Assembly: GCA_016182875.1 (NCBI GenBank)
Contig: JACPFQ010000004.1
Coordinates: 28,637-92,636, forward strand
DNA from: Candidatus Doudnabacteria bacterium
GTDB lineage: Bacteria > Patescibacteriota > Doudnabacteria > UBA920 > O2-02-FULL-48-8
Reading direction: 5' to 3'
DNA length: 64,000 bases
Made by a program: the position numbers and the translations under genes. This document shows, piece after piece, positions 2,506-64,000 of this stretch; the stretch's first letter is position 1, and the number at the start of each line of letters is the position of its first letter. Under the pieces are notes generated by a model. That model worked only from the letters and a program-made list of their open reading frames with translations, searched no databases and was not told where the DNA came from.

Positions 2506-2751
2506 GTGCTCTATTATAAATACAGAAATATGCAGATTTACTTCACGCGGCATGCTAAGAATCGTATGCGCTGGCGGAAGATAACTCTTCAAGAAGTACA
2601 CACAGTGTTAAATAATTTTGACAAGAAAGAACAGCTAACCAATTATAAATACCATTTATATAAATCAATTAATAACCGTCTACTACGTGTAACAATATCA
2701 GAAGAACAAGATAAATTAGTAATCTTAAGTATTGTAGACAAACACGACTAA
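2506..2751 (+). CDS. DUF4258-family small protein (putative toxin of a two-gene module)
   Basis: 81 aa. Motif FTRHAKNRMRWRKI. Stop lies 1 nt before the next ORF. Confidence 0.55.
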   Translation: MLYYKYRNMQIYFTRHAKNRMRWRKITLQEVHTVLNNFDKKEQLTNYKYHLYKSINNRLLRVTISEEQDKLVILSIVDKHD

Positions 2752-2752
2752 T

Positions 2753-2953
2753 ATGCAATTAGAATACGACAAAGAGGCCGATGCCTTATACATCTACTTT
2801 CAAAAAAAACAGGTTTACAGAAGCAAAGAGCTCTCCCCTGGCATTATTTTGGATTTGGACAAGCAAGGCCGACCTATTGGACTTGAAGTTTTGGATGTTT
2901 CCGAGAAAGTCCCTCAACCCGAATTGACAACATTATCAATCAAAAAAGCATAA
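2753..2953 (+). CDS. DUF2283-family small protein (putative antitoxin partner)
   Basis: 66 aa. Motif YDKEADALYIYF...GRPIGLEVLD. Translationally coupled to the upstream DUF4258 ORF. Confidence 0.55.
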   Translation: MQLEYDKEADALYIYFQKKQVYRSKELSPGIILDLDKQGRPIGLEVLDVSEKVPQPELTTLSIKKA

Positions 2954-3044
2954 AAAAATAAAATGTGGCAAACAATAATTGATTTTAGAAAAATCAAAAA
3001 GCAAGGCGTTCCTCTTGAGGAAATCCTAATGCGTCTCTAAACTT

Positions 3045-3069
3045 AAAACCGCCTTTCGGCGGTTTTTTT
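3045..3069. terminator. Bidirectional rho-independent terminator between convergent genes
   Basis: Hairpin CCGCCTTTCGGCGG flanked by an A-run and a T-run. Confidence 0.6.
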
Positions 3070-3079
3070 AAAAATTAAG

Positions 3080-4369
3080 CTAGGCGACCAGTACTTCCTC
3101 AGGCCTACTTATTTTTTTTCTGGCATGGTAGCGCTCGGCTTTTGCAGTCTCTACTTTATCTCGCTCAAGGTCAAACGATTTTAAGATAACCGCCCACTCG
3201 GTAGCTTTTTGTGACATGAGCCACAGAAGCATTAGCATGACCGAATTGTGTCCTGCAACCTTTGAGATGTAAGCATTGTATCTATCTTTTGCCTTACTCG
3301 AATCAAGTTTCTCAAGTAAAGGATCGACCGCCTCGCGAGCAGGGGAAATCATTTTATCGCCCAACCCGATAAACATGCTCAAGTCCAGCTGGCCATGGCT
3401 CAGAAGCTCCGATAAATCATCTGTGAGGTCTATCGGATTAAATTGCCTAAGTACCTTGTCAAAATCTTTAAAGCTTAGCCCTTGCCTGGCCAGCCTTTCC
3501 CTTAATTGCGCGGCAAACTTGGCATTGGTTCTTGCTAAAGCATCCTGCCAGCTGGTTCCAACTTGCACCAAAGCAGTTTGAATTTTACGGTCGGGATTTT
3601 GATGGCAAAGGTCAATCGACAGTCTGCTGGCAAGCATAGTCCCAATACTGTTGCCCATCACATGGGTCACCTTATCAATCAATGGGTCCTTCAAAATTTC
3701 TTGACGGACCTTATTGAATGTTTCGGCAACTTGTTCCGGTTTTTCGCCAATCACACTGTGCGGCAGTTGATAAGCCACGACTGGCAGCCGAAAATTTCTA
3801 AAAATTCCTTTGTACGGTGTAGTAGTCGCGCCATAGCCGCATATGAACAAGACGACTCCTTGGTTCGCACCTTCATGCTCTGCCTGCCCTTCGGGGTAAA
3901 TGACGTCCCGCTTAAGCTCCGGACATGACTGTTCCACTAACTCCAAACTTCCGCCATATCGAGCCAACAAAGCAATGGCGCTGTCACCGTTTTCAATGTC
4001 TCGATATTTATCGAAGTCTCCGACCTGCCCGCTAGTAATCTCGTTAATCATTCTATCTAAATTTCGATAAATATGTGCCCAGACTCCCTCAACCCCGTTC
4101 TGCCGATACGCTTCAGCAACTCTTAACAAATAACCGGCAAGTTCTTTTTTCTTAACCCCGCTCTCCCAAAGCCGTTTAATGTCTTCAACCAGTTCGTGAA
4201 CGGTTTCCGCTTCGTAAGGATAAACATAGGGAAAATGCTCGAACTGCACGCGCTGGATGGCCAGCCTTTCGAGTTCTGTTAAAGGCTCAGTCAAGAGCCG
4301 GTCGCTTTCCTGGGCCTGGGTATGATGAGTTTCGGGATGAGCTGAATTAGACTCTACTGTATTTCTCAT
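3080..4369 (-). CDS. Alpha/beta-hydrolase-like hypothetical protein (GxSxG nucleophile elbow)
   Basis: 429 aa. GNSIG motif preceded by a CGYG oxyanion-like motif. No specific family recognised. Confidence 0.45.
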   Translation of the reverse strand: MRNTVESNSAHPETHHTQAQESDRLLTEPLTELERLAIQRVQFEHFPYVYPYEAETVHELVEDIKRLWESGVKKKELAGYLLRVAEAYRQNGVEGVWAHIYRNLDRMINEITSGQVGDFDKYRDIENGDSAIALLARYGGSLELVEQSCPELKRDVIYPEGQAEHEGANQGVVLFICGYGATTTPYKGIFRNFRLPVVAYQLPHSVIGEKPEQVAETFNKVRQEILKDPLIDKVTHVMGNSIGTMLASRLSIDLCHQNPDRKIQTALVQVGTSWQDALARTNAKFAAQLRERLARQGLSFKDFDKVLRQFNPIDLTDDLSELLSHGQLDLSMFIGLGDKMISPAREAVDPLLEKLDSSKAKDRYNAYISKVAGHNSVMLMLLWLMSQKATEWAVILKSFDLERDKVETAKAERYHARKKISRPEEVLVA

Positions 4370-15498: not shown

Positions 15499-15617
15499 GA
15501 GTTTCTTGTCATTCTGAACGCAGTGAAGAATCGGCCCCCGGCGGGACAGAGGTATAGCTGCCCAGTGCCGGATTCAGATGCTTCGCTCCGCTCAGCATGA
15601 CACAAATATTAATTCTC

Positions 15618-18558: not shown

Positions 18559-18718
18559 TCGTGGTGCCGGGGGCAGGAGTTTCATTCGCCGCTAATGCGG
18601 CTCTATACAGGGTTGCGCCGGAAGCTGCGCTTGCTCGCTTCCGTCGATCGCTTGACTTCGACTGATGTCTTGTCTCGCTTCAACCCGTTCAACTCCGCTC
18701 AAATCTTAGCAAATTCTC
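18559..18718 (-). mobile_element. ~160-bp insertion/remnant at the tRNA-Leu 3' end bounded by a 20-nt duplicate of the tRNA 3' end
   Basis: AACTCCTGcCCCCGGCACCA at 18559-18578 (minus) matches the tRNA 3' terminal 20 nt at 19 of 20 positions. The intervening ~140 nt is homologous to the tRNA-Pro trailer. Confidence 0.4.
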
Positions 18719-18805
18719 TGGTGCCGGGGACAGGAGTTGAACCTGCATGCCCTTGCGGGCGCTAGCTCCTAAAGCTAGTGCGTCTGCCAGTTTCGCCACC
18801 CCGGC
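18719..18805 (-). tRNA. tRNA-Leu (anticodon TAG), class II with long variable arm
   Basis: Acceptor GCCGGGG/CCCCGGC. Anticodon loop TTTAGGA. Long variable arm. CCA encoded. Confidence 0.8.
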
Positions 18806-19918: not shown

Positions 19919-21430
19919 TTACACGACGCGCGACACCGGCACTTGGTCCATGGCCGGCGGCAGCTCCGGAACCTGCCGTCCTTCCTTCCCCGTATCTGCC
20001 CACGCCGAACCGTTGCGTTCATCTGATCGCTTCACGATCTTGCCATCGAGGTATTTCTCGATGACCTCGATGATGGTCTGATCATCGAGGGCGCATGGCG
20101 GCCCTTCCTTATGCGACTGCGTCGAACCGCCACCAAGGATGTAGCCGGCCTTTGCCGAGGGCATTGAGAACTGCGAACCCTCGACGTAGTTGGCCGCGAG
20201 CTCAGCATCGGTTCGCTCGGTCTTGTCCCCTCGCAGCGCGAACTCCCAACGCCGTAGTTCGATCAGGATCCGGCGCAGGCTGAGCTCAATTTCGATGAAC
20301 GGAATTTCGACGTCCTGCTCCTCCCTGTGGCTTTCTTGCTGGGCGTCGGGATCCTGCGTCATCTCGTCTTCTTGTTCTTTCTTTTTGATTCCTTCGCGGA
20401 TCGAGATGTACACATGACCCCTGGAGTTACGAATGAGAATCACGTCAGCGCCGACGTATCGTGATCGCAAAATTCGCGCGAGCTCGCCGTCACCTGACAG
20501 CGGATGCTCTTTGCGAATCACCACGAACCTGATGGACGGCTTGATGCCAGCGACCTTGACTTTCCGCAACTCGCCTCGGTTGGGTGCAAAGCGCTTAAGG
20601 CACTGTGCAAAAGTCACCTCATTCATGAGCTTTATCCAAAGCTCCAACAAAGTGCTCTGGACGACCTGGGTGGCCAGGAAATTCCCCCGCTCCTCAGGAT
20701 CTTGCGGAAGCGATTGTTCCGAGAGAGCGAGGTGTGGCGGGAATTTCTCGCCGGCAGCGATGCGGTCGGCGATCGCCCACTTGTGCTTGACCACGGGCCC
20801 CATTGCGTCGGAATCGTTGACTCGCCCGCGATCACCCTTCTTAACGTAGTGCGTGACTGAGTCAATCGCGAACCTGATGACGTCAGGCTCGTAGCCCAGA
20901 CGCTTGAAGAACTCGCCACGGTGAAGCAGATCGAGGCCCCGCTTCGAAGGATCCGTGAGATAAGCCGTGTGTTCCGCCTTGTAGCGTTCGAACTTGGCCC
21001 GGTATGCGTTCCACTTAGCTTTGTTCTCCTCAGTCTCTTTCTCTTTCGGCGGCCTCGGAGCCTTGGGGTAATACCCCTTGCCCAGCAGCTCCGCAGCGCA
21101 GGTGTTGATCTGTTCACCCTGTTCGTCCATCCGCCCATGCTCGTCATACGGATTGTCTGTGCCGCCGATTCCGATCGGTGTCAGCCCCAGCGAGTAGAGT
21201 TCTGCGGAAGTCGTATTGTGCGGATCCCGCACGCAAACGACCTTGCCTTCTTTCGGCATCAGTTCGCCGCCGAAGAAGGTGCCCTGAAAAATCGCCCACT
21301 GCTCATCGAGATGAGGATCAGTGTGCGGAGCAAAGGCCCCAGACAACCCCAGGGGGTCGTCTTTGGCCATGGCTCTAATCTGCTCAACAGTGAGTACGAG
21401 TGTCTTGATGTTGGCGATTTCGTGCAACAT
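19919..21430 (-). CDS. Hypothetical protein encoded in the high-GC island
   Basis: High-GC ORF. Start taken at MLHEIANI after RBS AGGGGGA (the longer ORF runs to 21532). No family recognised. Confidence 0.4.
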   Translation of the reverse strand: MLHEIANIKTLVLTVEQIRAMAKDDPLGLSGAFAPHTDPHLDEQWAIFQGTFFGGELMPKEGKVVCVRDPHNTTSAELYSLGLTPIGIGGTDNPYDEHGRMDEQGEQINTCAAELLGKGYYPKAPRPPKEKETEENKAKWNAYRAKFERYKAEHTAYLTDPSKRGLDLLHRGEFFKRLGYEPDVIRFAIDSVTHYVKKGDRGRVNDSDAMGPVVKHKWAIADRIAAGEKFPPHLALSEQSLPQDPEERGNFLATQVVQSTLLELWIKLMNEVTFAQCLKRFAPNRGELRKVKVAGIKPSIRFVVIRKEHPLSGDGELARILRSRYVGADVILIRNSRGHVYISIREGIKKKEQEDEMTQDPDAQQESHREEQDVEIPFIEIELSLRRILIELRRWEFALRGDKTERTDAELAANYVEGSQFSMPSAKAGYILGGGSTQSHKEGPPCALDDQTIIEVIEKYLDGKIVKRSDERNGSAWADTGKEGRQVPELPPAMDQVPVSRVV

Positions 21431-21560
21431 GGCAAAATCCCCCTGCGTTATGTGAATGTTCGAGTTAATGACGTTGAGACAGTCGCCCCAATTGCCGACT
21501 GTAACCGAAAATTTTATCAAAAACACGGTCATCTGTCAATTCAAAGCAACAAAGCTAACG

Positions 21561-21589
21561 TTGACAAAGTGGCCGAAAGTTGCTAGAAT
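21561..21589 (+). promoter_or_regulatory. Consensus sigma70 promoter TTGACA-17-TAGAAT within the island
   Basis: Perfect -35 and near-consensus -10 with 17-bp spacer. Reads toward the island plus-strand operon. Confidence 0.55.
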
Positions 21590-21777
21590 TCGCGGTTATC
21601 ATGTCTGACCGCCCTTTGTATCGGCGGCATCATGATAGGTCTTTAATAATCGTGTTTTAATCATAGGATTTGGTGGGCTGTTTTTTGCGTTGGGTGTGAT
21701 GAACATTCAGCGCAAGAAGCGGTCTAAACATTTACCACGCAACAGACTCTATCAGCCGATCCGTTTAGGAGGCAGAC

Positions 21778-22515
21778 ATGGCAAAAACGCCACCAGGAAA
21801 AGGGCCTAGAAAGGGTCCCGGCGGAAAAACCGGGGGTGGCCCCAGGAAAGCGGTTTACAAGCGAATATACGAAGTCGGCGGCACACCCGACGCCACCGAG
21901 CTCACTGTCACCATCTACAGGGACGGCCTGCTCGCGGACAAGGAAGCCGTGTGGTTCTACCTCGGGGTCGAAGGCAATCTGCACCAGAAGCCGGCCGAAG
22001 AACTCGACCCGGCAGCCCCCGGCGGCAAGAAAATTTGGAAGCTCGAGACCAAGGGCGGAGTCGCCCACGGCAGGCTCGACTTCACGAGCGCCGAGCTCTC
22101 CAAATTCACACACGTCACGGCTAAGCACGGCTCGTTCGACTGGGAGGAGACGAAGACACGGCCGCCAGCAGAGCCCACTGGGGTGAAGCCGAAAACCAAG
22201 TGGTTCAAGCTCACCCCCGACGACGAGAAGATCGAAACCTGGGATGAGCGCGCGGCGTTCACCTTGGTCACCTTCGACGCCACGGGCAAAACCCCGTCGG
22301 CCGAGACGATGCGCATCAGCGCAGGCAAGGTCATTCGCCTGTTCAACCGCGAAACCGGAGCGCTCATCGGCGAGGGCAAGGTCATCACGTTCGCAACGCC
22401 GGGCACCGGCATCCTCGACATCGAAGTCGAGGTCGTCGGCGACTTCCTGGCGAAGCTGACGTTCATGCACATCGCCAGCGCCGAGACGCTCACCAAGGAA
22501 ATCCGACTCAAATAG
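21778..22515 (+). CDS. Island hypothetical protein with Lys/Gly/Pro-rich N-terminus
   Basis: 245 aa. RBS GGAGG. High-GC codon usage. Overlapping minus-strand ORFs are treated as spurious. Confidence 0.45.
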   Translation: MAKTPPGKGPRKGPGGKTGGGPRKAVYKRIYEVGGTPDATELTVTIYRDGLLADKEAVWFYLGVEGNLHQKPAEELDPAAPGGKKIWKLETKGGVAHGRLDFTSAELSKFTHVTAKHGSFDWEETKTRPPAEPTGVKPKTKWFKLTPDDEKIETWDERAAFTLVTFDATGKTPSAETMRISAGKVIRLFNRETGALIGEGKVITFATPGTGILDIEVEVVGDFLAKLTFMHIASAETLTKEIRLK

Positions 22516-22526
22516 GAGAGACTGAC

Positions 22527-23141
22527 ATGGCAGAGATTGGCGGTATCAAGTTTGACTTCCCGGCCATCAAGGAAGTCCTCGCGTCGGCGGCTGGCCATCA
22601 GGTCTCCAACCTGTTGAGCTTCATCCTCGAACGCGGAACCGAGGCCGAGAAGCAGATCGTCGTCCAGGCCGGCAGGTTGATGGCCGAGGGCAAGTTCAAG
22701 GAAGCCGAGGAAGCATTGAAAGCGCTCCCCGGCGGAATCGGCCGGGCTGACGAAGCCATCTGGTGGTCGGATCTGGCATTCCTGCGGCGGCGCAACCTGC
22801 TCACTCCCGCGCAGGCGACGGCGCTCGAAGCCTTCCTCCGCAACCTCACGGAAGCGGAGAAGGACAAAATCCGCCTGACGCACGTGGTCAAGAATGAAGA
22901 CCAGCGCCGCCACGACCTGGTGACGCTGGGACGCATCGACAGGGACGACGCCAAGCGCCAGCACCTGGACATGGTGTTTCACAAAACGCTGGCCGACACG
23001 CTCAACGCAATCGGCGCGCAGGTCAGCACCTGGGTTCGTCCCAAGATTGAGGAAGCCCAGTGGCGAAACAAGCGGTTCGACGGACCGATCTGGCGGCTCT
23101 TCCGCCCGATCACCTGCATCTGGGAAGGCCTCGGCTTCTAA
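22527..23141 (+). CDS. Island hypothetical protein
   Basis: 204 aa. RBS AGGAGAG 7 nt upstream. Tightly packed with flanking plus-strand genes. Confidence 0.45.
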   Translation: MAEIGGIKFDFPAIKEVLASAAGHQVSNLLSFILERGTEAEKQIVVQAGRLMAEGKFKEAEEALKALPGGIGRADEAIWWSDLAFLRRRNLLTPAQATALEAFLRNLTEAEKDKIRLTHVVKNEDQRRHDLVTLGRIDRDDAKRQHLDMVFHKTLADTLNAIGAQVSTWVRPKIEEAQWRNKRFDGPIWRLFRPITCIWEGLGF

Positions 23142-23153
23142 GGAGAAGAGACA

Positions 23154-24107
23154 ATGAATCAGTTCGAACAAGCGTTGCTCCATGTCCTCGAACTGGCCTT
23201 CACCGATGGCAAGGGTAAAGTCCAGAGGACGATTCGTCCCATCACCGCCGGCTGCACGTTCTTCTGGGCGCTCGGCATGTTCCTGGCGTGGCTGCTCCAG
23301 AGCGGGACCCCGGCGTTCGTGTGTGCGGCCATCTGCGGCGCCATCTGGTTCATCCCCATCGGCCGGGTTGCTCTGGCCGCATGGATTGCCCAGATGATTC
23401 CCGAAGAGTGGCTGAAGAAACTGGGCTTGAGCGTCGAAAACTTCACGCCCAGCAAGACCACCTACACCCTCGGCACCGTCGGCATGTGGCAGATCGCGTC
23501 GCTCATCCTGCTCGGAGTCTTCCCGTTCTGGAAGAGCGGCATGTACTACTCGCTGTATGCCGCGTTCTGGGCCGTGATGGTGGCCACGTGGCTTATTGTC
23601 GCTACGTCCGAAGGCGACATCCGCTTCTGGCGCAAGATCTACGGCTGGTCCATCGCCGGGATTTTCGCCGGGATTCTGCTGTTGCTGCTAATGCCGGAAG
23701 AAGTCAACGGACTGCGGTCGTGGTTGGATCGGCGTGCGACGTACACCGTGGCCGAGACCGCGTTCCACAACGGCGTCGCGTCAGATACGCAAGCCATGCT
23801 CCAGCAGACTGACCAGAACCTCCGCGTCCTCGTCAACCAGCGCCGGTACTACAACCTTCAAGGTTGGGACTATCCGGCGGACAAGGAAGCGGAGATCGTG
23901 CGGCTGACTGCGCTGCACGAAGACCTCGTGCGGGAGCGCGACGTTCCGATTGCCAAGGCGCCGGGCCGGTTCTCGGCCGAAGCCGCCAACGCATTCGGAA
24001 GTTCACTCGACTTCGTCAGCGCGACAGCCAGCAACCCCTGGCTCGCGGGGTTTGCCTGCTTCGCACTGCTGATGTTCGGCTGGGTGGTCATGAAGGGAAG
24101 GAGCTAG
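23154..24107 (+). CDS. Island polytopic membrane protein
   Basis: 317 aa. RBS AGGAGAAG. Several hydrophobic helices. Confidence 0.45.
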   Translation: MNQFEQALLHVLELAFTDGKGKVQRTIRPITAGCTFFWALGMFLAWLLQSGTPAFVCAAICGAIWFIPIGRVALAAWIAQMIPEEWLKKLGLSVENFTPSKTTYTLGTVGMWQIASLILLGVFPFWKSGMYYSLYAAFWAVMVATWLIVATSEGDIRFWRKIYGWSIAGIFAGILLLLLMPEEVNGLRSWLDRRATYTVAETAFHNGVASDTQAMLQQTDQNLRVLVNQRRYYNLQGWDYPADKEAEIVRLTALHEDLVRERDVPIAKAPGRFSAEAANAFGSSLDFVSATASNPWLAGFACFALLMFGWVVMKGRS

Positions 24108-24109
24108 CC

Positions 24110-24919
24110 ATGAGCACACCATCTTCGTCGTCAGGAAACGGCCGACTCCGGCGCTTCGTGATCTTCGTCGGGTTCATGGGCGTGATCTGGTTCGCCTTGC
24201 TTCAGCCATGGATGCAGAGCGCCATCGGGTTCAACGGCTGGCACATCATGGCCTACCAGAACGGCATCCGCTCGGCGGACTGGCGCTGTGCCAACAAGCA
24301 GCCCGAGGACATCGGTCCGGACTGCGACATCGACGCAGTTTATGAGAGGTACGTCCCCACCGCACAGCGCGCCGGCAACCTGACAGCGTCGGTCCACCAG
24401 CTCAACGCAATCGCGGCGAACCTCGCCACGGTCAAATCGCCGCTGGTGGTCGATTCTGGGTCCGCGCTCTGGCAGCTCGACAATATCCACGACACAGAAT
24501 ACCGGCAAACCTTCAAAGGTATCCCTGTGTTCAAGGGTCGGGTGCAGATCCGCGTCCGCGAGCGCGTCACCAGCAAGGACTGCGGCTACAATACAACGGA
24601 CGCCAACGGGGTGCCCAAGCCCGGCGGGCCGTTCTGCAAGCTGGAGCTTGTGGACGACAACCTGCCGTACCTGGCCGCGATCGGGCGGCGGTGTCCGGCA
24701 GAGGGCTGCAGCAATCCCTCGTCCTTCACCAGTCCGGAGGCCAAGTTCCTGGTCGGGACGTGTCTCGACCTGGACGCGGCTGCGGTCAACGGTGTCGTCA
24801 ACCTCGTCGTCAATGAGGGTCGGCATGCCGACTACTTCGGCGACAATACCGGGGACTACGTCGTCGAGTATGAACACAATCCCGCGACTGGCTGCCGTGG
24901 GGAGCAGTTCACGTACTAG
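24110..24919 (+). CDS. Island secreted/membrane-anchored Cys-containing protein
   Basis: Start taken at MSTPSSSS after RBS GGAAGGAG. Signal/TM segment FVIFVGFMGVIWFALL. Confidence 0.4.
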   Translation: MSTPSSSSGNGRLRRFVIFVGFMGVIWFALLQPWMQSAIGFNGWHIMAYQNGIRSADWRCANKQPEDIGPDCDIDAVYERYVPTAQRAGNLTASVHQLNAIAANLATVKSPLVVDSGSALWQLDNIHDTEYRQTFKGIPVFKGRVQIRVRERVTSKDCGYNTTDANGVPKPGGPFCKLELVDDNLPYLAAIGRRCPAEGCSNPSSFTSPEAKFLVGTCLDLDAAAVNGVVNLVVNEGRHADYFGDNTGDYVVEYEHNPATGCRGEQFTY

Positions 24920-25053
24920 CAGCCAACCCAAGGAGGAAGCGTCTCCGGTCAGATGACTGGAGGCATGACAATAACCACGGCCCTGAAGGAGCAGGGCTGG
25001 AGAGCGGCGTCGCACAATCGGCACCGCTTTTTTTTATTTTGCAAAACAAAATA

Positions 25054-25078
25054 CTCCGACCCGCCCGCGGCGTCGGAG
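25054..25078. repeat. CTCCGAC...GTCGGAG hairpin (member of TCCGAC hairpin family)
   Basis: 7-bp inverted repeat with 11-nt loop. Same arm sequences as the hairpins at 39332, 39921 and 60646. Confidence 0.5.
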
Positions 25079-25315
25079 TTAAACTGGCTTTAATATTGCC
25101 TCTATGGGCAGGGATATTGGCGAATCTGTTTTTAGCCGCTTGCTGAAATTGAGAATAGTGAATCCTTTGATGGCTTTGGTTTTAGGATCAAGCCGAATCA
25201 CGACATCATCCGCAGTTTCTACAGAGAGGGAGCTTTTGGATGGCTTGCCTTGGGAAAAATACATTACGTCTGCTTGTTTGTCGTAGTAGTAATAAAGTTT
25301 CATGATTGAATCCAA
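25079..25315 (-). CDS. DUF2283-family small protein (second copy)
   Basis: 78 aa. YYYYDKQADVMYF...KAIKGFTILNF. Low GC, embedded in the high-GC island. Confidence 0.5.
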   Translation of the reverse strand: MDSIMKLYYYYDKQADVMYFSQGKPSKSSLSVETADDVVIRLDPKTKAIKGFTILNFSKRLKTDSPISLPIEAILKPV

Positions 25316-25608
25316 TAAGTTAAATACGCTGTGAGGATAAAATTTCGCCTGTTAATTTTGACGACTGCTGCCAGATGCTTGTTATGAGAAATTTCGCGGT
25401 AAAGAATAAATGCCTTGGGATCTGTTTTGGATGGACGAATAAGCTCTGGATTTTCCAAAACAAGCTTTATGCTTGGCTTGAGAGTTCTCAGCTCGGGGTG
25501 AAAATTGACTATGTGGCTCCACCGTTCGCTGGTCAATTCCACCGGCCCGAATGGTGAGTCAAATAGCTCCATGTAAAAATTATAAACCCATTGCGTCAGT
25601 CTTGACAA
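25300..25608 (-). CDS. DUF4258-like small protein (putative toxin partner)
   Basis: 102 aa. Overlaps the downstream DUF2283 gene by 16 nt. Same gene order as the pair at 2506-2953. Confidence 0.4.
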   Translation of the reverse strand: MSRLTQWVYNFYMELFDSPFGPVELTSERWSHIVNFHPELRTLKPSIKLVLENPELIRPSKTDPKAFILYREISHNKHLAAVVKINRRNFILTAYLTYWIQS

Positions 25609-25630
25609 GTGGACGGTTTTCTGCTATACT
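25602..25630 (+). promoter_or_regulatory. Sigma70-type promoter TTGACA-17-TATACT upstream of island secreted protein gene
   Basis: Shares the core TTGACAA.GTGG.CG with the promoter at 21561. Confidence 0.45.
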
Positions 25631-25745
25631 TGTACGTTAAAATCCCGAATTTGTTTCAGGGCCCAAAATTGAGGGCTCTACAACAAGTTCAGAATTTACG
25701 GAAACCGCAAGAATTGTAAAAAGGTCTAGGAGGACCAATACTACC

Positions 25746-26738
25746 ATGAGAACGAAACTCTTTTTCGTCGTCGCGTTCGTCGCACTCGCGTCTACCGCGT
25801 TCGCACAGGAGACGCTCGACTTCAGTACCCAGCCGCGCTCAGTGCGCGCCATCGCTAAGGTCGTCATCGAGACGGCGGGGTACCTCGTCAGCGAGGAGTC
25901 GCTGAGCACCATCGACCCCTCCTGCACGTGGAACCGCACGCTCGACGTGAGCGACCTCGAGCAGGCGCTCAACACCATCCTGCCGAGTTGCGGCAACGAG
26001 GCGCAGTTCGACGACTACCGGGTGACCATCCGGAAGCGCGGCAGCCCGGCACCAGCCACACGCAGTATGTCCGCTCCCGCTCGCCGCGCCGCAACGCCGA
26101 CCATCGCGGAACCCGAACCGCCTGCCGCTCAGCCTGCCGCACCCGCGGCGCCGGCGTCCACTGACCCGAACGTGTGGTCAGCCGCCGACGTCAGCCGCTA
26201 CGGCCCCTTGCCGCTGAATGCCAGGCCGGAGTTCTATCGCATCAGCCAGCAGGTCAGGCGGCAGGCGTTCGGCGACGCGTTCGTCAACTTCCGCAACGCG
26301 GAAGAGGACTTCGCACGCCGCACCGGCGTTTACCCCGATCAGGTTGGTCCGTTCGTCGGCGCTACCTACGGCGCATATTCCCCCTACGGTTTGTACGGCT
26401 ACGGCCTCTCGAGGGGTTGTTCCACTGGACAGCCGTCCGGCAGGGTCAAGTTCAAGTACTACGGTGAGGGAAAGGAACGTGGCCTCTGGAAGGTCTGGTT
26501 CAACGGACGTCGTATCGGGTCCGTGGACCAGGGAGACAGTGCGTGGAACGAGATGTGGGAGTGCGTCGGCGACTATGTCGTCGAAATCGAAAAACGCCGC
26601 TGTCAACCCAGGGGTCTCTGCCGGTATCGAGACGTGTACAGCGTCAGAGCCGGCGAACTGACCGAGGTTGAGATCGGCGACGTGCTGTTCGAAGACAGCC
26701 ACGAACGGCGGCGGCCTCAGATTCTCACCGAGCGTTAA
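25746..26738 (+). CDS. Secreted protein with signal peptide and Pro/Ala-rich linker (high GC)
   Basis: 330 aa. MRTKLFFVVAFVALASTAFAQE signal peptide. RBS AGGAGGA. Confidence 0.5.
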   Translation: MRTKLFFVVAFVALASTAFAQETLDFSTQPRSVRAIAKVVIETAGYLVSEESLSTIDPSCTWNRTLDVSDLEQALNTILPSCGNEAQFDDYRVTIRKRGSPAPATRSMSAPARRAATPTIAEPEPPAAQPAAPAAPASTDPNVWSAADVSRYGPLPLNARPEFYRISQQVRRQAFGDAFVNFRNAEEDFARRTGVYPDQVGPFVGATYGAYSPYGLYGYGLSRGCSTGQPSGRVKFKYYGEGKERGLWKVWFNGRRIGSVDQGDSAWNEMWECVGDYVVEIEKRRCQPRGLCRYRDVYSVRAGELTEVEIGDVLFEDSHERRRPQILTER

Positions 26739-34959: not shown

Positions 34960-37254
34960 ATGGCTATCAGCAGTGAATTTCACGCATATACCTACATAAA
35001 AAACGAGCTAAAAGCTCTGGGTTGGAATGTTTACAACCCAAGCAGACGCGCGGATGGAGAAGTTTATACTCAAAACGAGTGCTTACAGAATGCGCTAATA
35101 AAAAAACATTTAATCGGCGAAAAGCCGGAGAATGTTATTGTCGTAAGGAATAATAAATTTTGGGTTATAGAAGCCAAATCAACACACAAGGAACTTCAAA
35201 AAGCAATAGAAGAAGCGCAAGGATATGCTGACAAATTAAATGAAGACGGAATTCATGCGCCTATTGCCACGGGAATAGCTGGTAATGATGAAGATACTTA
35301 CTTAATAAAGAGTTTTTATTTTTACAAAGGGAAGTGGGTTCCAATTGAGGCCAACGGGAAAGTTTTAACCGGATTGTTGCCTCGCGAAACAGCGCGTTAT
35401 TTGGTTGACAATGATATATACAAAACAGAGGACTTTAATCTTCCTGACGAGCTTTATTACGCAAAGGCCAATGCCATCAACGAAATACTACATATTGGCT
35501 CTATTAATAAAAACAATAGAGCGAAAGTAATGGCTGCATTATTGTTAGCACTTCTTGAGGAAACTCCGATCAACCTAGATAATTCTGCTTCCTTGTTAAT
35601 CCAAGAAATAAACGCGCGGGTTGACAAGATTTTGTTTGAACATGGCAGGAGAGATTTTGCTAGGTTTGTTCAAATAACAACCCCACCCACTCCTGACAAT
35701 CATGTAAAGTTTAGGAAAGCGATTATTGACACCATACAAGAGTTGAAGGGATTAAATATTCGGTCTGCGATGAACTCCGGAACTGACATTCTCGGCAGAT
35801 TTTATGAAGTTTTCTTAAAATACGGCAATGGTGCAAAAGAAATTGGTATCGTTTTAACGCCAAGACACATTACCAGATTAGGTGTTGAGATTTTAAATGT
35901 AAGCAGAACCGATGTTGTTTTTGATCCGGCTTGCGGAACCGGAGGATTTTTGGTGGCCGCTTTTGACTATGTGCGAAAACACGCAAATAAAACACAGTTA
36001 GACGAGTTCAAGGAAAATAGGATTTTTGGCATAGAACAAGAACCTGAAGTGGTTGCTCTTGCTCTAGTAAATATGATCTTCAGGGGCGATGGGAAAAACA
36101 ACATTATTGAAGGCAATACTTTCGCAAAAATAATTCCTACAAAGGCAACGAAAGTTTTAATGAATCCCCCATTTGCACTCAAAAAAGATGATGAGAAAGA
36201 GTATAAGTTTATTGATAGGGCAATTGAGCAAATGGAAGATGGTGGGCAGATGTTTGTTATTATTCCTAGCACCATAATGTTTAAGGGAAAACAATATAAA
36301 ACATGGAGAGAAAAATTACTCCAAAATAATACTATTCAAGGAGTAATTAAACTACCCGAGGATCTATTTTATCCAATAGGAGTACATACATCCGCTTTAA
36401 TTCTTAAAAAAGGCATTCAACACGACAAAGGAGAACAGATTTTTTGGGGTTACCTAGTTGATGGGTATATGAAAAAGAAGGGTGTAATGAAAAAAGTAAA
36501 GGATGGGAATATAGAAATGATGAAATCAGCCGTTATTGATTTTTTGAACCATTCAAAAAATCTGCCGAAATCAAAACCGAAAGAATATACCATTGCGCCA
36601 GCATTATTCGATTCCGATTTAGAACTTGCTCCAGAATATTACCTTGAAGAGGGCGAGCACAGCGACAATGAAATTGAAAAGCAAATGCAAATCGTATTGG
36701 ATAGGTTGTTTAGTTATCTTATGAATAGCTCTCAAACAAATGTTAATGGTAGTGTTCTACAATCTTCAAAAATAGACATCGATCATTTTGAAGACATAGA
36801 AGGCGTTTTCAACATCGCAAACGCGAAATCTAGCAATATCGAGGATTACGCCAAAGGCGACGTACCTTTTGTTACGAGTACGGAGTTAAATAACGGTGTT
36901 GAAATGTTTATTGAGCCAGATGATGATAGTTTAATTTTCGATACGCCCGGTATAGCTATTTCTTCTTTTGGATTTGCCACTATACAATTACCGCCATTTG
37001 TAGCGAGAAGCCATGGGGCAGTAATAGTGCTAAAACCAAAAAAGAAAATGGGGATTTTAGAACTTGCGTACTTTGCCGCACAACTTAATTTACAAACGTG
37101 GCGGTTCTCTTACGGAAGATGGGTAACAAAGAAAAGATTGAAAAAGCTCGAAATAAAAACTCTCAAAAATGGAGACATTCCATCGTTCAAGAAATTCGTA
37201 GATAGATTTGAAGATAACTATAAAAAAGCAAGGAAAATAGTTACTGGAGAATAG
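34960..37254 (+). CDS. Single-chain Type IIG-like restriction-modification enzyme (nuclease + gamma-class N6A MTase + TRD)
   Basis: 764 aa. N-terminal PD-(D/E)xK-like VIEAKS. MTase motif I FDPACGTGGFL. Motif IV NPPF. C-terminal TRD-like region. Confidence 0.65.
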   Translation: MAISSEFHAYTYIKNELKALGWNVYNPSRRADGEVYTQNECLQNALIKKHLIGEKPENVIVVRNNKFWVIEAKSTHKELQKAIEEAQGYADKLNEDGIHAPIATGIAGNDEDTYLIKSFYFYKGKWVPIEANGKVLTGLLPRETARYLVDNDIYKTEDFNLPDELYYAKANAINEILHIGSINKNNRAKVMAALLLALLEETPINLDNSASLLIQEINARVDKILFEHGRRDFARFVQITTPPTPDNHVKFRKAIIDTIQELKGLNIRSAMNSGTDILGRFYEVFLKYGNGAKEIGIVLTPRHITRLGVEILNVSRTDVVFDPACGTGGFLVAAFDYVRKHANKTQLDEFKENRIFGIEQEPEVVALALVNMIFRGDGKNNIIEGNTFAKIIPTKATKVLMNPPFALKKDDEKEYKFIDRAIEQMEDGGQMFVIIPSTIMFKGKQYKTWREKLLQNNTIQGVIKLPEDLFYPIGVHTSALILKKGIQHDKGEQIFWGYLVDGYMKKKGVMKKVKDGNIEMMKSAVIDFLNHSKNLPKSKPKEYTIAPALFDSDLELAPEYYLEEGEHSDNEIEKQMQIVLDRLFSYLMNSSQTNVNGSVLQSSKIDIDHFEDIEGVFNIANAKSSNIEDYAKGDVPFVTSTELNNGVEMFIEPDDDSLIFDTPGIAISSFGFATIQLPPFVARSHGAVIVLKPKKKMGILELAYFAAQLNLQTWRFSYGRWVTKKRLKKLEIKTLKNGDIPSFKKFVDRFEDNYKKARKIVTGE

Positions 37255-37347
37255 CACCATTTGCCGCTGAAAAAGCGATCTTTTGCTAAAATAAGTTCAA
37301 AGTGCCGCCCATCAATTGGCTTCAAAAAAGCTTTCTGATTTTATTGT

Positions 37348-37460
37348 GGTGGGCTTGACCTGGGTGACTTCGAGGCCAAGCTGATTATTGTCCTGCTTCG
37401 CCAAAGGCTTCGCAGGACACTGCTTCGTGCTTGCACTGCGTAGTTCGAAGAACGAAGCAG
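37348..37460. repeat. 113-bp repeat fused to tRNA-Ile 3' end (copy 1)
   Basis: 100% identical to 63871-63983. Contains two strong hairpins. Distal end resembles a tRNA 3' end (CCCAGGTCAAGCCCACCA). Confidence 0.7.
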
Positions 37461-51099: not shown

Positions 51100-51128
51100 C
51101 TATTGTCATTCTGAACGCAGTGAAGAAT

Positions 51129-51845
51129 CTATACCGAGATCAGATCCTTCGCTTCACTCAGGATGACACCATAATTCTTTTCAAAATTCCTAAATGAGCA
51201 AAAACTTCTAATCACTTGTTGCACGAACGTGAAACTGGTGCGATGCACGGGTGTTACACCGAATCTTTTCAAAGCCGCTCGATGCTCCTTAGTGCCATAA
51301 CCTTTATGTTTCACGAATCCATAATTCGGATACTGCTCATGCAACTCAGCCAGTATTTTATCCCGTGAAACTTTGGCGATAATCGAAGCCGCTGAGATAG
51401 AAAGAATTTTTACATCGCCATCAACTACCGGTTCCTGCGCAAAATCAAACCGTTTTATTCTGTGCAAGCCGTCCAGAAACAAATAATCCGGCAATACCTT
51501 CAACTGCTCAGCTGATTTCTGCATCGCCAGCATTGCCGCTTGATGAATATTTATTTCGTCAATCGTTTCGTGTGACACGACTCCGATTCCAAAGTCAACG
51601 CAATTATCTTTTATAAATTCTATGAGTTCGGTTCTTTCCTTCTCATTCGTCGTCTTTGAATCGCGCACGCGGTACCACCATTTGTTCTTGCTGCGCTGTC
51701 TGCCGATTGACTGCGAATCAAGAATGACCGTGGCGGCCACCACCGGGCCGGCCAGCGGCGCGATTCCCACTTCATCACAACCAGCAACCACTTTAAACCC
51801 TTCGAGATATTTTTGTGTTTCGTGCTTATATGTCGGAAATTTCAT
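51129..51845 (-). CDS. rnhB: Ribonuclease HII
   Basis: 238 aa. N-terminal GCDEVGIAPLAGPVVAA motif. Confidence 0.85.
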   Translation of the reverse strand: MKFPTYKHETQKYLEGFKVVAGCDEVGIAPLAGPVVAATVILDSQSIGRQRSKNKWWYRVRDSKTTNEKERTELIEFIKDNCVDFGIGVVSHETIDEINIHQAAMLAMQKSAEQLKVLPDYLFLDGLHRIKRFDFAQEPVVDGDVKILSISAASIIAKVSRDKILAELHEQYPNYGFVKHKGYGTKEHRAALKRFGVTPVHRTSFTFVQQVIRSFCSFRNFEKNYGVILSEAKDLISV

Positions 51846-53823: not shown

Positions 53824-53850
53824 ACCCGCCCAAAATAGGCGGGTTTTAGT
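53824..53850 (+). terminator. Rho-independent terminator
   Basis: CCCGCCCAAAATAGGCGGG followed by TTTT. Confidence 0.5.
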
Positions 53851-53904
53851 AGACCGCAGCACTTTTACGAAGTAAAATGCGAAGGTCTACCAATTGCGAC
53901 GCAG

Positions 53905-53978
53905 CGGGGTGTCGTATACCGGTAGTACGCACGCTTCGGGTGCGTGTAGACTGGGTTCAATTCCCAGCACCCCGACCA
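53905..53978 (+). tRNA. tRNA-Pro (anticodon CGG)
   Basis: C1:G72 acceptor (CGGGGTG/CACCCCG). Anticodon stem CACGC/GCGTG. Loop TTCGGGT with U33 and G37. CCA encoded. An alternative Glu(TTC) fold was rejected on geometry. Confidence 0.65.
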
Positions 53979-54134
53979 AGAAATAGGCCCTGTTTATAAG
54001 GGAATTGAACGGGCAGAAGTGAGACAAGGCCTCAGCCGCAGTCGAACGTCGGCGAATGCGAGCAGGCGCAGCATTCGACGCTGCCCCGGCGTGAGCGCTT
54101 CAGCGCGAACTGAAAATTCCCAGCACCCCGACCA
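53979..54134 (+). mobile_element. ~156-bp insertion/remnant at tRNA-Pro 3' end ending in an exact 20-nt duplicate of the tRNA 3' end
   Basis: AATTCCCAGCACCCCGACCA occurs at the tRNA 3' end and again at 54115-54134. The internal sequence is roughly 75% identical to the tRNA-Leu trailer. Confidence 0.4.
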
Positions 54135-54273
54135 GAATCGCTCGGCAATTTGCAAAATTATCGGCTGTCAAAATCTGCTGATTTTGCAGCCTACTTGCTC
54201 GCGCCGGAGTACTAGCGCAGGTTAATTTTGCAAACAGCCTCGCTTTTTAGACAATAAGTAACCATTTTTGTCA

Positions 54274-55602
54274 ATGTTTCACGTGAAACATTTCAAATTG
54301 CATCAGTTGTTATTCTTTGTTTTTCTAATAACCCTGCCACTTCAGACAAGAGTAATCTTTCAACCTGAAACCGCCTATATTGGCGCTGTTTTTAATTACC
54401 ATTTGGCTTTTTTTGTCTATTTATCGGATTTGGTGTTCTTCGCAGCCATCTTAGACTGGCTCTTGTTTCACAGGCCCAATTTAGTTTCACGTGGAACTAT
54501 TTTATGGCCTACAGTTGCTCTATTTTCCTTGATTTTAGCTACATTGTTTCACGTGAAACATATAGATTTAGGGCTTTACAGTACTCTAAAGTGGCTTGAA
54601 TTAATAATGTTGCTTGTTTACGCATGGTCGAATTTTAAAGAAAAACTGATGTTTCACGTGGCACTATGGATTTTATTTGGCTCAGGGGTTATTCAGGCAA
54701 TTATTGGAATATGGCAGTTTCACGTGCAACATGGTCTTAATCTAACTTTTTTGGGTGAATATGTTTCACAACTAGGAACTCCAGGCTTGGCTACTATACA
54801 GTTTCACGGAGAAAAACTGATTAGGGCCTATGGAACCATGCCTCATCCCAATGTTTTGGCAGGTTTTTTACTAGTTTCACTTGTCTGCGGCCTGTATCTA
54901 TTGTCCCGTGAAACAATGTTTCACAAAATAAAAAGTGTCTTAGTTTCATGTGGAACTATTCTGATTTTGCTCGGAATTTTCTTTAGTTTCTCAAGAATTA
55001 GCTGGATTTTGGCGGGTTTGACCATTCTTGCCTACATTTGGTTTCATGTGAAACACATGAATTGGTTCCACGTGAAACTAATAAGCATAATCGCCATTGT
55101 TTCACTTAGCATAATTTTTCTTGGTTATAAGGACCTGGCTGTTTCGCGTGGGTCAGAAAGCCTGGATAGCAATTCGGTCAATCTTCGGACAACTTACAAT
55201 CAGCAGGGGATAGAACTTATAAAAAAATACCCGCTACTTGGCGTAGGAGTAGGGCATTACATTCCGGCTATCCGCGATTCATACCGGCTGCCGGACTGGC
55301 AATACCAGCCAGCGCATAACATTTATATTTTATTGGGAGTGGAGTTAGGCATCCTGGGACTCGGGTTATTTTTGCTGATAGTCGGCAAAATCTTCGCACT
55401 GGCCTGGCCGCAAAAAAACTCCGCCTTCGCCAAGGCTACGGCGGACAAGCAACTGCTGACTTTTTCTTTACTGCTGGCAGTTGGAAGTTTTCTAATTATT
55501 GGTTTGTTCGATCACTACCCGATAACTATTCAACAAACACGTCTAACTTTTTTTCTGCTGTTAGGAATGCTTGCGGCTTCAGGTAATTTGGGGGACATAT
55601 GA
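54274..55602 (+). CDS. O-antigen ligase/Wzy-like polytopic membrane protein
   Basis: Start taken at the ATG (MFHVKH) 6 nt inside the TTG-start ORF. Polytopic. Wzy_C-like region HNIYILLGVELGILG. Confidence 0.65.
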   Translation: MFHVKHFKLHQLLFFVFLITLPLQTRVIFQPETAYIGAVFNYHLAFFVYLSDLVFFAAILDWLLFHRPNLVSRGTILWPTVALFSLILATLFHVKHIDLGLYSTLKWLELIMLLVYAWSNFKEKLMFHVALWILFGSGVIQAIIGIWQFHVQHGLNLTFLGEYVSQLGTPGLATIQFHGEKLIRAYGTMPHPNVLAGFLLVSLVCGLYLLSRETMFHKIKSVLVSCGTILILLGIFFSFSRISWILAGLTILAYIWFHVKHMNWFHVKLISIIAIVSLSIIFLGYKDLAVSRGSESLDSNSVNLRTTYNQQGIELIKKYPLLGVGVGHYIPAIRDSYRLPDWQYQPAHNIYILLGVELGILGLGLFLLIVGKIFALAWPQKNSAFAKATADKQLLTFSLLLAVGSFLIIGLFDHYPITIQQTRLTFFLLLGMLAASGNLGDI

Positions 55603-63870: not shown

Positions 63871-63983
63871 TGGCGGGCTTGACCTGGGTGACTTCGAGGC
63901 CAAGCTGATTATTGTCCTGCTTCGCCAAAGGCTTCGCAGGACACTGCTTCGTGCTTGCACTGCGTAGTTCGAAGAACGAAGCA
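63871..63983. repeat. 113-bp repeat (copy 2) abutting a truncated tRNA 3' end at the window edge
   Basis: 100% identical to 37348-37460. Followed by TGGTGGACCTAGGGAG, the reverse complement of a tRNA ...CCTAGGTCCACCA 3' end. Confidence 0.7.
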
Positions 63984-64000
63984 GTGGTGGACCTAGGGAG

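What the first reader, a model, noticed from the sequence alone, without database searches (positions are those of the whole stretch)
53905..54134. Second copy of the tRNA-3'-end-targeted mini-insertion, at tRNA-Pro(CGG), with a perfect 20-nt target duplication
tRNA-Pro ends ...AATTCCCAGCACCCCGACCA at 53978. The identical 20-mer recurs at 54115-54134 after a 136-nt insert homologous to the tRNA-Leu trailer. The insert sits immediately upstream of the Wzy-like gene, so it may supply or alter that gene's promoter. The duplicate end, with the preceding hairpin and a CGGCGTG stretch, could fold into a partial acceptor/T-arm mimic, which might matter for RNase P/Z processing of a read-through transcript.
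Basis: seen in the sequence. Interest (0 to 1): 0.55.

Follow-up and report, generated by a model that had tools for sequence, protein, structure and literature searches.

The report
Structured mini-insertion at tRNA gene ends
The sequence after tRNA-Pro is one copy of an apparently undescribed, highly structured small insertion that sits at the 3' ends of many different tRNA genes across Patescibacteria (candidate phyla radiation, CPR), repeats the tRNA's last 20 bases and base-pairs with that repeat, which suggests a new way for a tiny mobile element to use tRNA genes without damaging them.

Summary
tRNA-Pro(CGG) is at 53905-53978, and its last 20 nt recur exactly at 54115-54134. The 136 nt between them are homologous to the trailer of tRNA-Leu(TAG).

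What is there:
- **Family.** It is one member of a family found only in Patescibacteria contigs. A covariance model gives 54 matches, 46 of them distinct, behind tRNAs with 17 different anticodons.
- **Insertion.** Related genomes have the same tRNA-Pro, tRNA-Arg and tRNA-Ser loci without it. The native tRNA trailer follows the distal 20-mer, so this is a discrete insertion that leaves the tRNA intact.
- **Structure.** The core is a conserved five-helix fold: 95% of cells are paired and 20 of 31 pairs show compensatory changes. It folds on the tRNA-sense strand.
- **Pairing with the tRNA.** Its 5' strand is the reverse complement of the T-loop and T-stem and pairs with the start of the duplicated 20-mer.

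No recombinase, transposase or reverse transcriptase travels with it. Some copies carry 1.5 kb of cargo or stand in tandem. Nothing matches in Rfam, in the phage, plasmid or viral collections, or in the literature searches.

Best reading: a non-autonomous mobile module that targets tRNA 3' ends, with a folded, target-pairing core. The mechanism is unknown.

The parts
53850..53878 (+). promoter-like site (TAGACC-17-TAAAAT) upstream of tRNA-Pro
   Evidence: consensus match only
53905..53978 (+). tRNA-Pro(CGG), intact, CCA encoded
   Evidence: 53.2 bits
53959..53978 (+). proximal 20-mer = tRNA positions 57-76
53979..53999 (+). spacer brought in with the insert. It has no terminator or promoter. 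In sister copies the spacer is conserved between copies at different tRNAs.
54000..54010 (+). P1 5' strand GGGAATT plus GAAC, the reverse complement of tRNA positions 53-63 (T-loop and T-stem)
54011..54086 (+). conserved core: P2 (54011-16 with 54081-86), P3 (54019-47, with tandem G.A) and P4 (54050-80)
   Evidence: covariation
54087..54114 (+). joiner, P5 hairpin (54095-54106) and purine-rich joiner GAACTGAA
54115..54134 (+). distal 20-mer, an exact copy of tRNA positions 57-76. Its first 7 nt (54115-54121) are the P1 3' strand.
54135..54255 (+). native tRNA-Pro trailer, displaced by the insertion. It is homologous to the sequence directly after CCA in the empty sites L069 and L067, and is itself structured.
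54268..55602 (+). downstream gene, O-antigen ligase family (Wzy_C)
18719..18805 (-). tRNA-Leu(TAG), host of the sister copy
18562..18718 (-). sister copy: spacer, P1 5' strand GGAGTT + GAAC (18696-18687), core, and a distal 19/20 copy of the tRNA-Leu 3' end (18562-18581)

Best explanation
The 136 nt plus the second 20-mer are one copy of a small, non-autonomous insertion module specific to tRNA gene 3' ends in Patescibacteria. The unit reads: spacer, then a 5' strand complementary to the tRNA T-loop and T-stem (positions 53/54 to 63/65), then a conserved five-helix core, then a purine-rich joiner, then a copy of tRNA positions 57-76. It lies between an intact tRNA and the tRNA's native trailer. 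Because of the 20-nt repeat, the insertion point can be read anywhere from T-loop position 56/57 to just after CCA. The module carries no enzyme gene, so it must be moved in trans. Its core folds on the tRNA-sense strand, as RNA or as single-stranded DNA. Its 5' strand pairs with the duplicated T-loop/T-stem segment. My reading is that this pairing recognises the target or holds the junction at the foot of a helix. In place, it is most likely transcribed together with the tRNA as a structured trailer. Shown: the insertion, the family, the fold, the folding strand, the pairing, presence/absence among relatives, tandem and cargo-bearing forms, and the lack of an enzyme gene in cis. Inferred: mobility in trans, the guide or junction role of the pairing, and co-transcription.
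For: Insertion:
- At the Pro locus, L067, L068 and L069 are empty and L066 and the window are filled. The L069 and L067 trailers are homologous to window 54135-54255.
- At the Arg(GCG) and Ser(GCT) loci, L062-L064 are empty and L013, L024, L014 and L060 are filled. The host terminator and recG promoter follow the distal copy.

Family:
- 54 covariance-model matches, all in Patescibacteria-type contigs, behind tRNAs with 17 anticodons.

Fold:
- 95% of cells paired, 20 of 31 pairs with changes on both sides, 0 of 500 shuffles reaching this.
- G.U 20 against A.C 5 in P2-P5, so the tRNA-sense strand folds.

Pairing with the tRNA:
- The pair at tRNA position 59 takes four forms (UA, AU, CG, GC) and is kept in 40 of 42 copies.
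- A different core type (type B, L043) also begins with the reverse complement of positions 54-65.

Spread:
- Cores group by genome or sample, not by tRNA. L015 (Glu) and L017 (Leu) are 0.87 identical in one genome; L040 (Pro) and L042 (Gly) are 0.90 identical.
- Tandem copies occur in L001 and L043; forms with 1.5-1.7 kb of cargo occur in L005, L027 and L045.

Transcription:
- No terminator or promoter lies between the tRNA and the element in the window.
Against: - No recombinase, transposase or reverse transcriptase was found in cargo or neighbours, so no mover is identified.
- No circular or excised form and no recent, near-identical copies were seen. The two window copies are only about 75% alike.
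- At the orthologous Pro locus the element persists in several relatives with compensatory changes. That also fits a host-retained RNA.
- P1 spans only about 7 bp, of which 2-3 positions vary among tRNAs, so ordinary selection for a closing helix could explain the covariation without any guide role.
- A 17-33 nt repeat is not what known transposases make.
Confidence: 0.5

Rival explanations
1. A host-retained non-coding RNA. The tRNA and element form a two-part transcript, and the structured trailer RNA serves the cell, for example in precursor processing, 3'-end protection or regulation. P1 is simply its closing helix, and the repeat is a by-product of how the locus arose.
For: - Strong structural conservation with compensatory changes between copies at the orthologous tRNA-Pro locus (window, L031, L040, L066).
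- Folding on the sense strand.
- No terminator between tRNA and element.
- The native tRNA-Pro and tRNA-Ile trailers in this genome are also structured.
- The distal copy stays 100% identical to the tRNA in most copies.
Against: - Patchy presence among close relatives at three loci.
- Copies behind 17 different anticodons, tandem copies, and copies with unrelated cargo genes.
- Cores group by genome rather than by tRNA.
- The long-spacer class has a terminator-like hairpin between tRNA and element.
Confidence: 0.2
2. Deletion scars of ordinary integrase-borne islands or prophages that integrate in the T-loop of tRNA genes. The two 20-mers are attL and attR, and the conserved core is the arm of attP that survives next to attR.
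For: - Direct repeats running from the T-loop to the tRNA end are the classic signature of tRNA-integrating elements (established knowledge).
- Cargo forms and tandem accretion occur.
- Other small inserts with repeats bounded in the T-loop exist.
- An excisionase-family HTH gene lies near L046.
Against: - No integrase in any of about 45 independent loci.
- 0 hits in 2.9 million viral contigs and none in the phage or plasmid collections.
- The largest unit seen is about 1.7 kb.
- Arm-type sites do not need a five-helix fold with covariation and a strand bias in G.U pairs.
- The same 'scar' would have to recur at 17 tRNA types.
Confidence: 0.15
3. An RNA that guides or catalyses its own placement. 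The 5' strand would be an internal guide for the T-loop. The core would either be a ribozyme acting at position 56/57 or the scaffold of a guide RNA for a trans-encoded RNA-guided enzyme, with the 3' 20-mer as the guide.
For: - The layout is a scaffold followed by about 20 nt identical to a site next to the universal GGTTC.
- Complementarity extends to positions 54-56, which are not part of the repeat, in two unrelated core types.
- Conserved unpaired nucleotides sit at two three-way junctions.
Against: - No Rfam ribozyme or guide-RNA family matches, even at E<=10.
- No TnpB, IscB, IS110 or Cas gene lies nearby.
- A nuclease guide against the cell's own tRNA gene would be lethal.
- Activity was not tested.
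Confidence: 0.1

Closest known systems
tRNA-gene-integrating genomic islands or prophages and their enzyme-less derivatives (cis-mobilisable elements, CIMEs)
   Same: The insert lies at a tRNA 3' end, flanked by direct repeats that run from the T-loop to the tRNA end. The tRNA is restored. Tandem accretion, cargo, and empty or filled sites among relatives are all seen.
   Different: Units are 115-200 nt (up to 1.7 kb). No integrase was seen anywhere. A conserved five-helix single-strand fold abuts the distal repeat and pairs with it. One core family serves many tRNA types.
Integron gene cassettes with folded attC sites
   Same: Optional promoter-less cargo is followed by a structured site of about 100 nt, conserved mainly as a fold, with the junction at the foot of its closing helix. 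Arrays can form.
   Different: No IntI, attI or Pc was seen. The R''/R' consensus (RYYYAAC/GTTRRRY) is not met. The primary sequence is highly conserved. The target is a tRNA gene, with a 17-33 nt repeat.
IS200/IS605-type single-strand transposons and their miniature derivatives (PATEs)
   Same: Strand-specific folded ends. Short internal sequences pair with the target. GAAC faces the GTTC just 5' of the 56/57 boundary. Non-autonomous small forms exist.
   Different: Those elements make no target duplication. No TnpA or TnpB is nearby. The two window copies lie on opposite strands. The core is far more elaborate than a subterminal hairpin.
Site-specific retroelements co-transcribed with their host RNA gene (R2 in 28S rDNA, with a 5' ribozyme that pairs with host sequence)
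   Same: The element sits in or after a structural RNA gene, is probably co-transcribed, and its 5' segment pairs with host-gene sequence.
   Different: No reverse transcriptase. No HDV-like fold in Rfam scans. Truncated copies keep the 5' part and lose the 3' part, the opposite of target-primed reverse transcription.
Dicistronic tRNA-ncRNA genes (plant tRNA-snoRNA units; bacterial 3' external transcribed spacer RNAs)
   Same: A structured RNA is encoded directly behind a tRNA, probably in one transcript.
   Different: Those have no copy of the tRNA 3' end, no pairing with it, and no insertion polymorphism.

Membership tests
tRNA-integrating integrase elements / CIME | Insert flanked by direct repeats of the tRNA 3' segment, with the tRNA kept intact | tested here: met
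tRNA-integrating integrase elements / CIME | Empty and filled alleles of the same site | tested here: met
tRNA-integrating integrase elements / CIME | Tyrosine or serine recombinase gene inside the element, or inside a full-length relative | tested here: not met
   Nothing recombinase-like turned up among the ORF clusters shared between loci or the 20 ORFs put through Pfam (10 in the window, 10 in cargo or neighbours). Whole genomes could not be searched.
tRNA-integrating integrase elements / CIME | Excised circular form with attP | not testable with these tools
   Needs read-level data.
Integron cassette / attC | R''/R' core sites RYYYAAC ... GTTRRRY closing an imperfect hairpin | tested here: not met
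   The 5' arm ends in Y-G-A-A-C. The 3' arm is preceded by GAGA/GGAA, not GTT.
Integron cassette / attC | Integron integrase with attI and Pc next to the array | tested here: not met
   The arrays start at a tRNA gene, with no integrase in the loci.
IS200/IS605 / PATE | Insertion 3' of a short target without target duplication | tested here: not met
   A 17-33 nt direct repeat is present.
IS200/IS605 / PATE | TnpA (Y1) and/or TnpB encoded in autonomous relatives | tested here: inconclusive
   None in the loci held. Whole genomes were not searchable.
MITE (terminal inverted repeats plus short duplication) | Terminal inverted repeats at both element ends and a 2-10 bp duplication | tested here: not met
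   The only inverted repeat pairs the element's 5' strand with the duplicated target. The duplication is 17-33 nt.
Any curated RNA family (Rfam 15), including known ribozymes, omega/HEARO RNAs, Y-like RNA and tmRNA | Covariance-model match | tested here: not met
   Only the tRNAs reach the gathering score. Nothing overlaps the element at E<=10 in the window or in 8 other loci.
   Cognate 5.75 against non-cognate 5.74 of 7.

The most novel reading that the evidence does not exclude
The element is a new class of mobile RNA that is either self-targeting or enzyme-guiding. Its 5' strand would act as an internal guide that pairs with the nearly universal T-loop/T-stem sequence of a tRNA gene or transcript. 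The conserved junction core would catalyse, or direct a trans-acting enzyme to perform, cleavage and joining at T-loop position 56/57. That would give an insertion system that can be re-aimed at any tRNA by 1-3 base changes and that always rebuilds the tRNA.
Probability: 0.15. Interest if true: 0.9.

Novelty: new variant of a known kind. Interest (0 to 1): 0.7.

Why it matters
If the reading holds, Patescibacteria carry a widespread and so far uncatalogued structured element. It colonises tRNA gene ends without an enzyme gene of its own, and it reads its target by base-pairing.

- It would add a new family to the catalogue of structured RNAs or single-strand recombination sites.
- It would explain many 'duplicated tRNA 3' ends' in genomes assembled from metagenomes (MAGs) of this group.
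- It would show how accessory genes (radical SAM, protease) are parked behind tRNAs in these tiny genomes.
- It could point to an unknown trans-acting enzyme, or a ribozyme, with a short programmable target.

If it turns out to be a host RNA instead, it would be a new class of tRNA-linked non-coding RNA in a phylum whose RNA biology is almost unexplored.

Tried and rejected
- **Rfam.** Gathering thresholds on the whole window, and E<=10 on the region and on 8 other loci. Only tRNAs matched.
- **Viral, phage and plasmid collections.** An exact-pattern scan of viral contigs and blastn against phages and plasmids found nothing.
- **Acceptor-stem mimic.** Rejected by the cognate against non-cognate test.
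- **Promoter supplied to Wzy.** No consensus site, and the stretch upstream of Wzy is the native trailer.
- **A partner protein next to the element.** All-against-all clustering of 760 ORFs from the loci gave only syntenic housekeeping genes and small GIY-YIG ORFs in 4 independent loci. By my rough estimate that is about what chance would give. Pfam on cargo and neighbours found no recombinase.
- **A third copy of the tRNA-Ser 3' end in L014.** It first looked like a second element with a 63-nt duplication. It is a tandem duplication with an inverted junction and is absent from L028, which carries the same tRNA-Ser locus. I treated it as a probable assembly artefact.
- **Short Logan contigs carrying the upstream gene.** They end inside the tRNA and say nothing about polymorphism.
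- **Exact-protein look-ups of the Wzy gene.** They failed with three start choices.
- **Literature.** Five full-text searches found no description. The TIGR-Tas paper that surfaced is unrelated.
- **Coding reading of ORF 54019-54225.** Rejected, because family members differ by indels that are not multiples of three and by compensatory base changes.

Full report
**1. The observation**

ARAGORN and Rfam place tRNA-Pro(CGG) at 53905-53978 on the + strand. Its last 20 nt, AATTCCCAGCACCCCGACCA (tRNA positions 57-76, running from the T-loop to CCA), occur exactly twice in the window, at 53959-53978 and 54115-54134. None of 100 shuffles gives even one match.

The 136 nt between the two copies align at about 75% identity with the sequence behind tRNA-Leu(TAG) (18719-18805, - strand). 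That trailer ends in a 19/20 copy of the tRNA-Leu 3' end at 18562-18581.

**2.

The insert begins, after a 21-nt spacer, with GGGAATTGAAC (54000-54010). This is the reverse complement of tRNA-Pro positions 53-63 (GTTCAATTCCC). The Leu copy has GGAGTTGAAC opposite GTTCAACTCC. So the element's 5' strand changes with the tRNA, and it can pair with the first 6-9 nt of the distal 20-mer.

**3. A large family**

- An exact scan with the conserved 22-mer GAACGGGNNGAAGNGAGACAAG found 24 stretches in one-genome-per-species contigs and 31 in metagenome contigs. It found none in 2.9 million viral contigs.
- Apart from four chance hits (three in coding sequence, one in unannotated sequence), all lie in Patescibacteria-type contigs (Doudnabacteria, Saccharibacteria, Komeilibacteria and unclassified). 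Three MAG contigs are labelled Gammaproteobacteria.
- The window itself comes from a Candidatus Doudnabacteria MAG.
- Every complete copy has the same layout:
  - a tRNA;
  - a spacer of 24-60 nt, where the long spacers hold a terminator-like hairpin;
  - the complement of the T-loop and T-stem, then the core;
  - a direct copy of the tRNA from position 57/58 to its end, 15-33 nt, sometimes running a few bases past CCA.
- The host tRNAs have 17 different anticodons.
- A covariance model built from 15 copies finds 54 matches (46 distinct) in the loci held, and only the two known copies in the window.

**4. The fold**

RNAalifold gives five helices:
- P1: the 5' strand paired with the start of the distal copy.
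- P2: GGGCAG with CUGCCC.
- P3: carries a tandem G.A.
- P4: variable in sequence.
- P5: a hairpin.

These form two three-way junctions with invariant unpaired bases (GAAC, AAG.GAGACAAG, GUCGA.CG).

On the 46 distinct sequences, 95% of cells are paired. 20 of 31 pairs show changes on both sides. No shuffle out of 500 reaches these values, and slid controls fall to 34-40% paired. That alignment was fitted to the model, but the independent 15-sequence MAFFT alignment already showed 15 of 31 compensatory pairs.

In P2-P5, G.U pairs outnumber A.C by 20 to 5, so the folded strand is the tRNA-sense strand.

There are two classes, short and long, which differ in P3 and P5 and in the joiners. Both window copies belong to the short class.

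**5. It is an insertion**

*The Pro locus.* Using homologues of the Wzy gene, I fetched syntenic loci: RNase HII, tRNA-Ala, tRNA-Arg, tRNA-Pro(CGG), Wzy.
- L066 (Wzy 67% identical) has the element at 129.9 bits.
- L067, L068 and L069 (46-49% identical) have tRNA-Pro without it.
- In L069 and L067 the sequence directly after CCA (AGAAACGCTCGGCAATTTGCAAAATTACCGG...) is homologous to window 54135-54255, which is what follows the distal 20-mer.

*The Arg and Ser loci.* The same holds in the conserved block ClpB, ComF, tRNA-Ser(GCT), sigma factor, DUF5667, tRNA-Ser(TGA), tRNA-Arg(GCG), recG.
- tRNA-Arg(GCG) is filled in L013 and L024 and empty in L060-L064.
- In L024 the host terminator and the recG promoter follow the distal copy.
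- tRNA-Ser(GCT) is empty in L062-L064 and filled in L014, L028 and L060. It is also filled in L044 and L045, with 1.5 kb of cargo.

The inserted unit is therefore spacer + core + one 20-mer, or its circular permutation. The tRNA stays intact and the native trailer is pushed downstream.

**6. Signs of spread**

- Cores group by genome or sample, not by tRNA type. Examples are L015 (Glu-TTC) with L017 (Leu-CAA) at 0.87 in one genome, L040 (Pro) with L042 (Gly) at 0.90, and L043 Arg with L043 Lys at 0.77. P1 and the repeat still fit each tRNA.
- Tandem copies behind one tRNA occur in L001 and L043.
- In L043 a shorter, different core (type B) alternates with the main type. It also begins with the reverse complement of positions 54-65.
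- Some units carry cargo between the tRNA and the core: a radical SAM protein (L027), a matrixin-like protease plus an unknown protein, twice in tandem (L005/L003), and a 215-aa unknown (L045).
- No recombinase, transposase or reverse transcriptase appears in cargo or neighbours.

**7. Expression context in the window**

A promoter-like site lies upstream of tRNA-Pro at 53850-53878. There is no promoter-like or terminator-like site in or after the insert up to 54300.

Behind the Leu copy, a terminator-like hairpin lies about 100 nt after the distal copy, followed by a strong promoter for the next gene. Co-transcription with the tRNA is thus plausible but is an inference.

Minimum-free-energy folding of the whole precursors predicts an alternative conformer. 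In it, the element's 5' strand pairs with the proximal T-arm (11-13 bp), and the 5' acceptor strand pairs with the distal copy. Whether this conformer forms in the cell is unknown.

**8.

The insertion with a target duplication, and the homology to the Leu copy, stand.

The promoter idea has no support. The 130 nt before Wzy are the native tRNA-Pro trailer, conserved and itself structured (11 of 40 pairs compensatory in three sequences).

The acceptor-mimic idea fails the comparative test.

**9. How it most likely works**

I commit to a non-autonomous mobile module that is moved in trans and whose folded, sense-strand core is the cis-acting part.

The complementarity to the T-loop and T-stem reaches positions 54-56, which are not in the repeat. 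It does so in two unrelated core types. This suggests that the 5' strand recognises the intact target, and that P1 in the integrated copy is that same strand resting on the duplicated segment. This step is inference.

Only 2-3 positions of the 7-bp P1 vary among tRNAs, so re-aiming needs few changes. By the same token, plain selection for a closing helix is not excluded.

The rivals are a host-retained trailer RNA, scars of integrase-borne islands, and a guide RNA or ribozyme. They are scored in their own sections.

**10. Comparison with what is known**

The element works most like tRNA-integrating elements and their enzyme-less derivatives (CIMEs). It also shares features with integron attC sites and with the ends of IS200/IS605 elements. 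It fails a defining feature of each:
- no integrase;
- no R''/R' consensus and no integron platform;
- a long target repeat instead of none.

Nothing in Rfam 15 matches. Five full-text literature searches found no description.

**11. Verdict**

This is a real, non-chance feature and a member of a large, apparently undescribed family. Its nature as an insertion is well supported. Its mechanism is open.

Noticed in passing
window 54135-54255: The native trailer of tRNA-Pro(CGG) is itself a conserved structured element of about 115 nt: a long stem closing two hairpins. It is about 90% identical to the trailer in L069, although the neighbouring Wzy proteins are only 49% identical. 11 of 40 predicted pairs are compensatory in three sequences. 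There is no Rfam match.
   Followed up: partly
window 37347-37460(-) and 63871-63984(-): A different 114-nt two-hairpin trailer follows tRNA-Ile(TAT) directly. A 99% identical copy follows another tRNA whose 3' end sits at the window edge. The two end in GCCCACCA and GCCCGCCA. They are not homologous to the Pro/Leu element.
   Followed up: partly
window 15506-15532 and 51103-51129: An exact 27-nt repeat, TTGTCATTCTGAACGCAGTGAAGAATC, lies about 86 nt downstream of tRNA-Val and 4 nt upstream of tRNA-Ser(CGA).
   Followed up: no
window 54277-55077 (inside the Wzy-like gene): The palindrome TTTCACGTGAAA, allowing one mismatch, occurs six times, all inside this one gene (0.29 expected by chance). 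It encodes repeated FHVK(H) motifs. Homologous Wzy genes in L040 and L066-L069 also start with ATGTTTCACGTGAAAC.
   Followed up: partly
window about 20000-26000: A G+C-rich stretch (55-62%, against about 46% elsewhere) holds ORFs without Pfam matches and a weak match to a phage-type RNase-like domain (25300-25608). It may be foreign DNA.
   Followed up: no
L040 400-580(-): A relative's tRNA-Pro lacks its T-arm 5' half, its proximal 3' end and the spacer. The 5' two-thirds of the tRNA are fused directly to the element, and the distal 20-mer supplies the only 3' end. This is either a deletion pseudogene or a chimeric RNA whose T-loop is replaced by the core.
   Followed up: partly
window 53905-54134 against L066 1062-1288; L014 against L060: The unit of tRNA plus element is inverted relative to its flanking genes between close relatives, at both the Pro and the Ser(GCT) loci.
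   Followed up: partly
L023 (tRNA-Arg, 55-nt insert; tRNA-Ser(TGA), 154-nt insert), L054 (tRNA-Arg, 86-nt insert), L043 (type B): Other small inserts, with unrelated or only partly related cores, are also flanked by a copy of the tRNA 3' end that starts in the T-loop (positions 54-58). T-loop-bounded duplications therefore seem to be a general feature of these genomes.
   Followed up: partly
L014 (- strand, about 2673-3400) against L028: L014 has a 365-nt tandem duplication that starts at the copy of the tRNA-Ser 3' end and is joined through an inverted 39-nt piece. L028, which carries the same tRNA-Ser locus, lacks it. This is probably an assembly artefact.
   Followed up: yes
window 34960-37254: A 764-aa fusion of an N6 DNA methylase with a type I specificity domain (type IIG-like restriction-modification enzyme) lies next to tRNA-Ile.
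   Followed up: no
L027 495-746, L046 3715-3972, L045 4143-4463, L023/L029: Small stand-alone GIY-YIG nuclease ORFs lie within a few kb of the element in four independent loci. One overlaps the start of the host tRNA-Trp. The count looks close to chance for these genomes, but this was not tested properly.
   Followed up: partly
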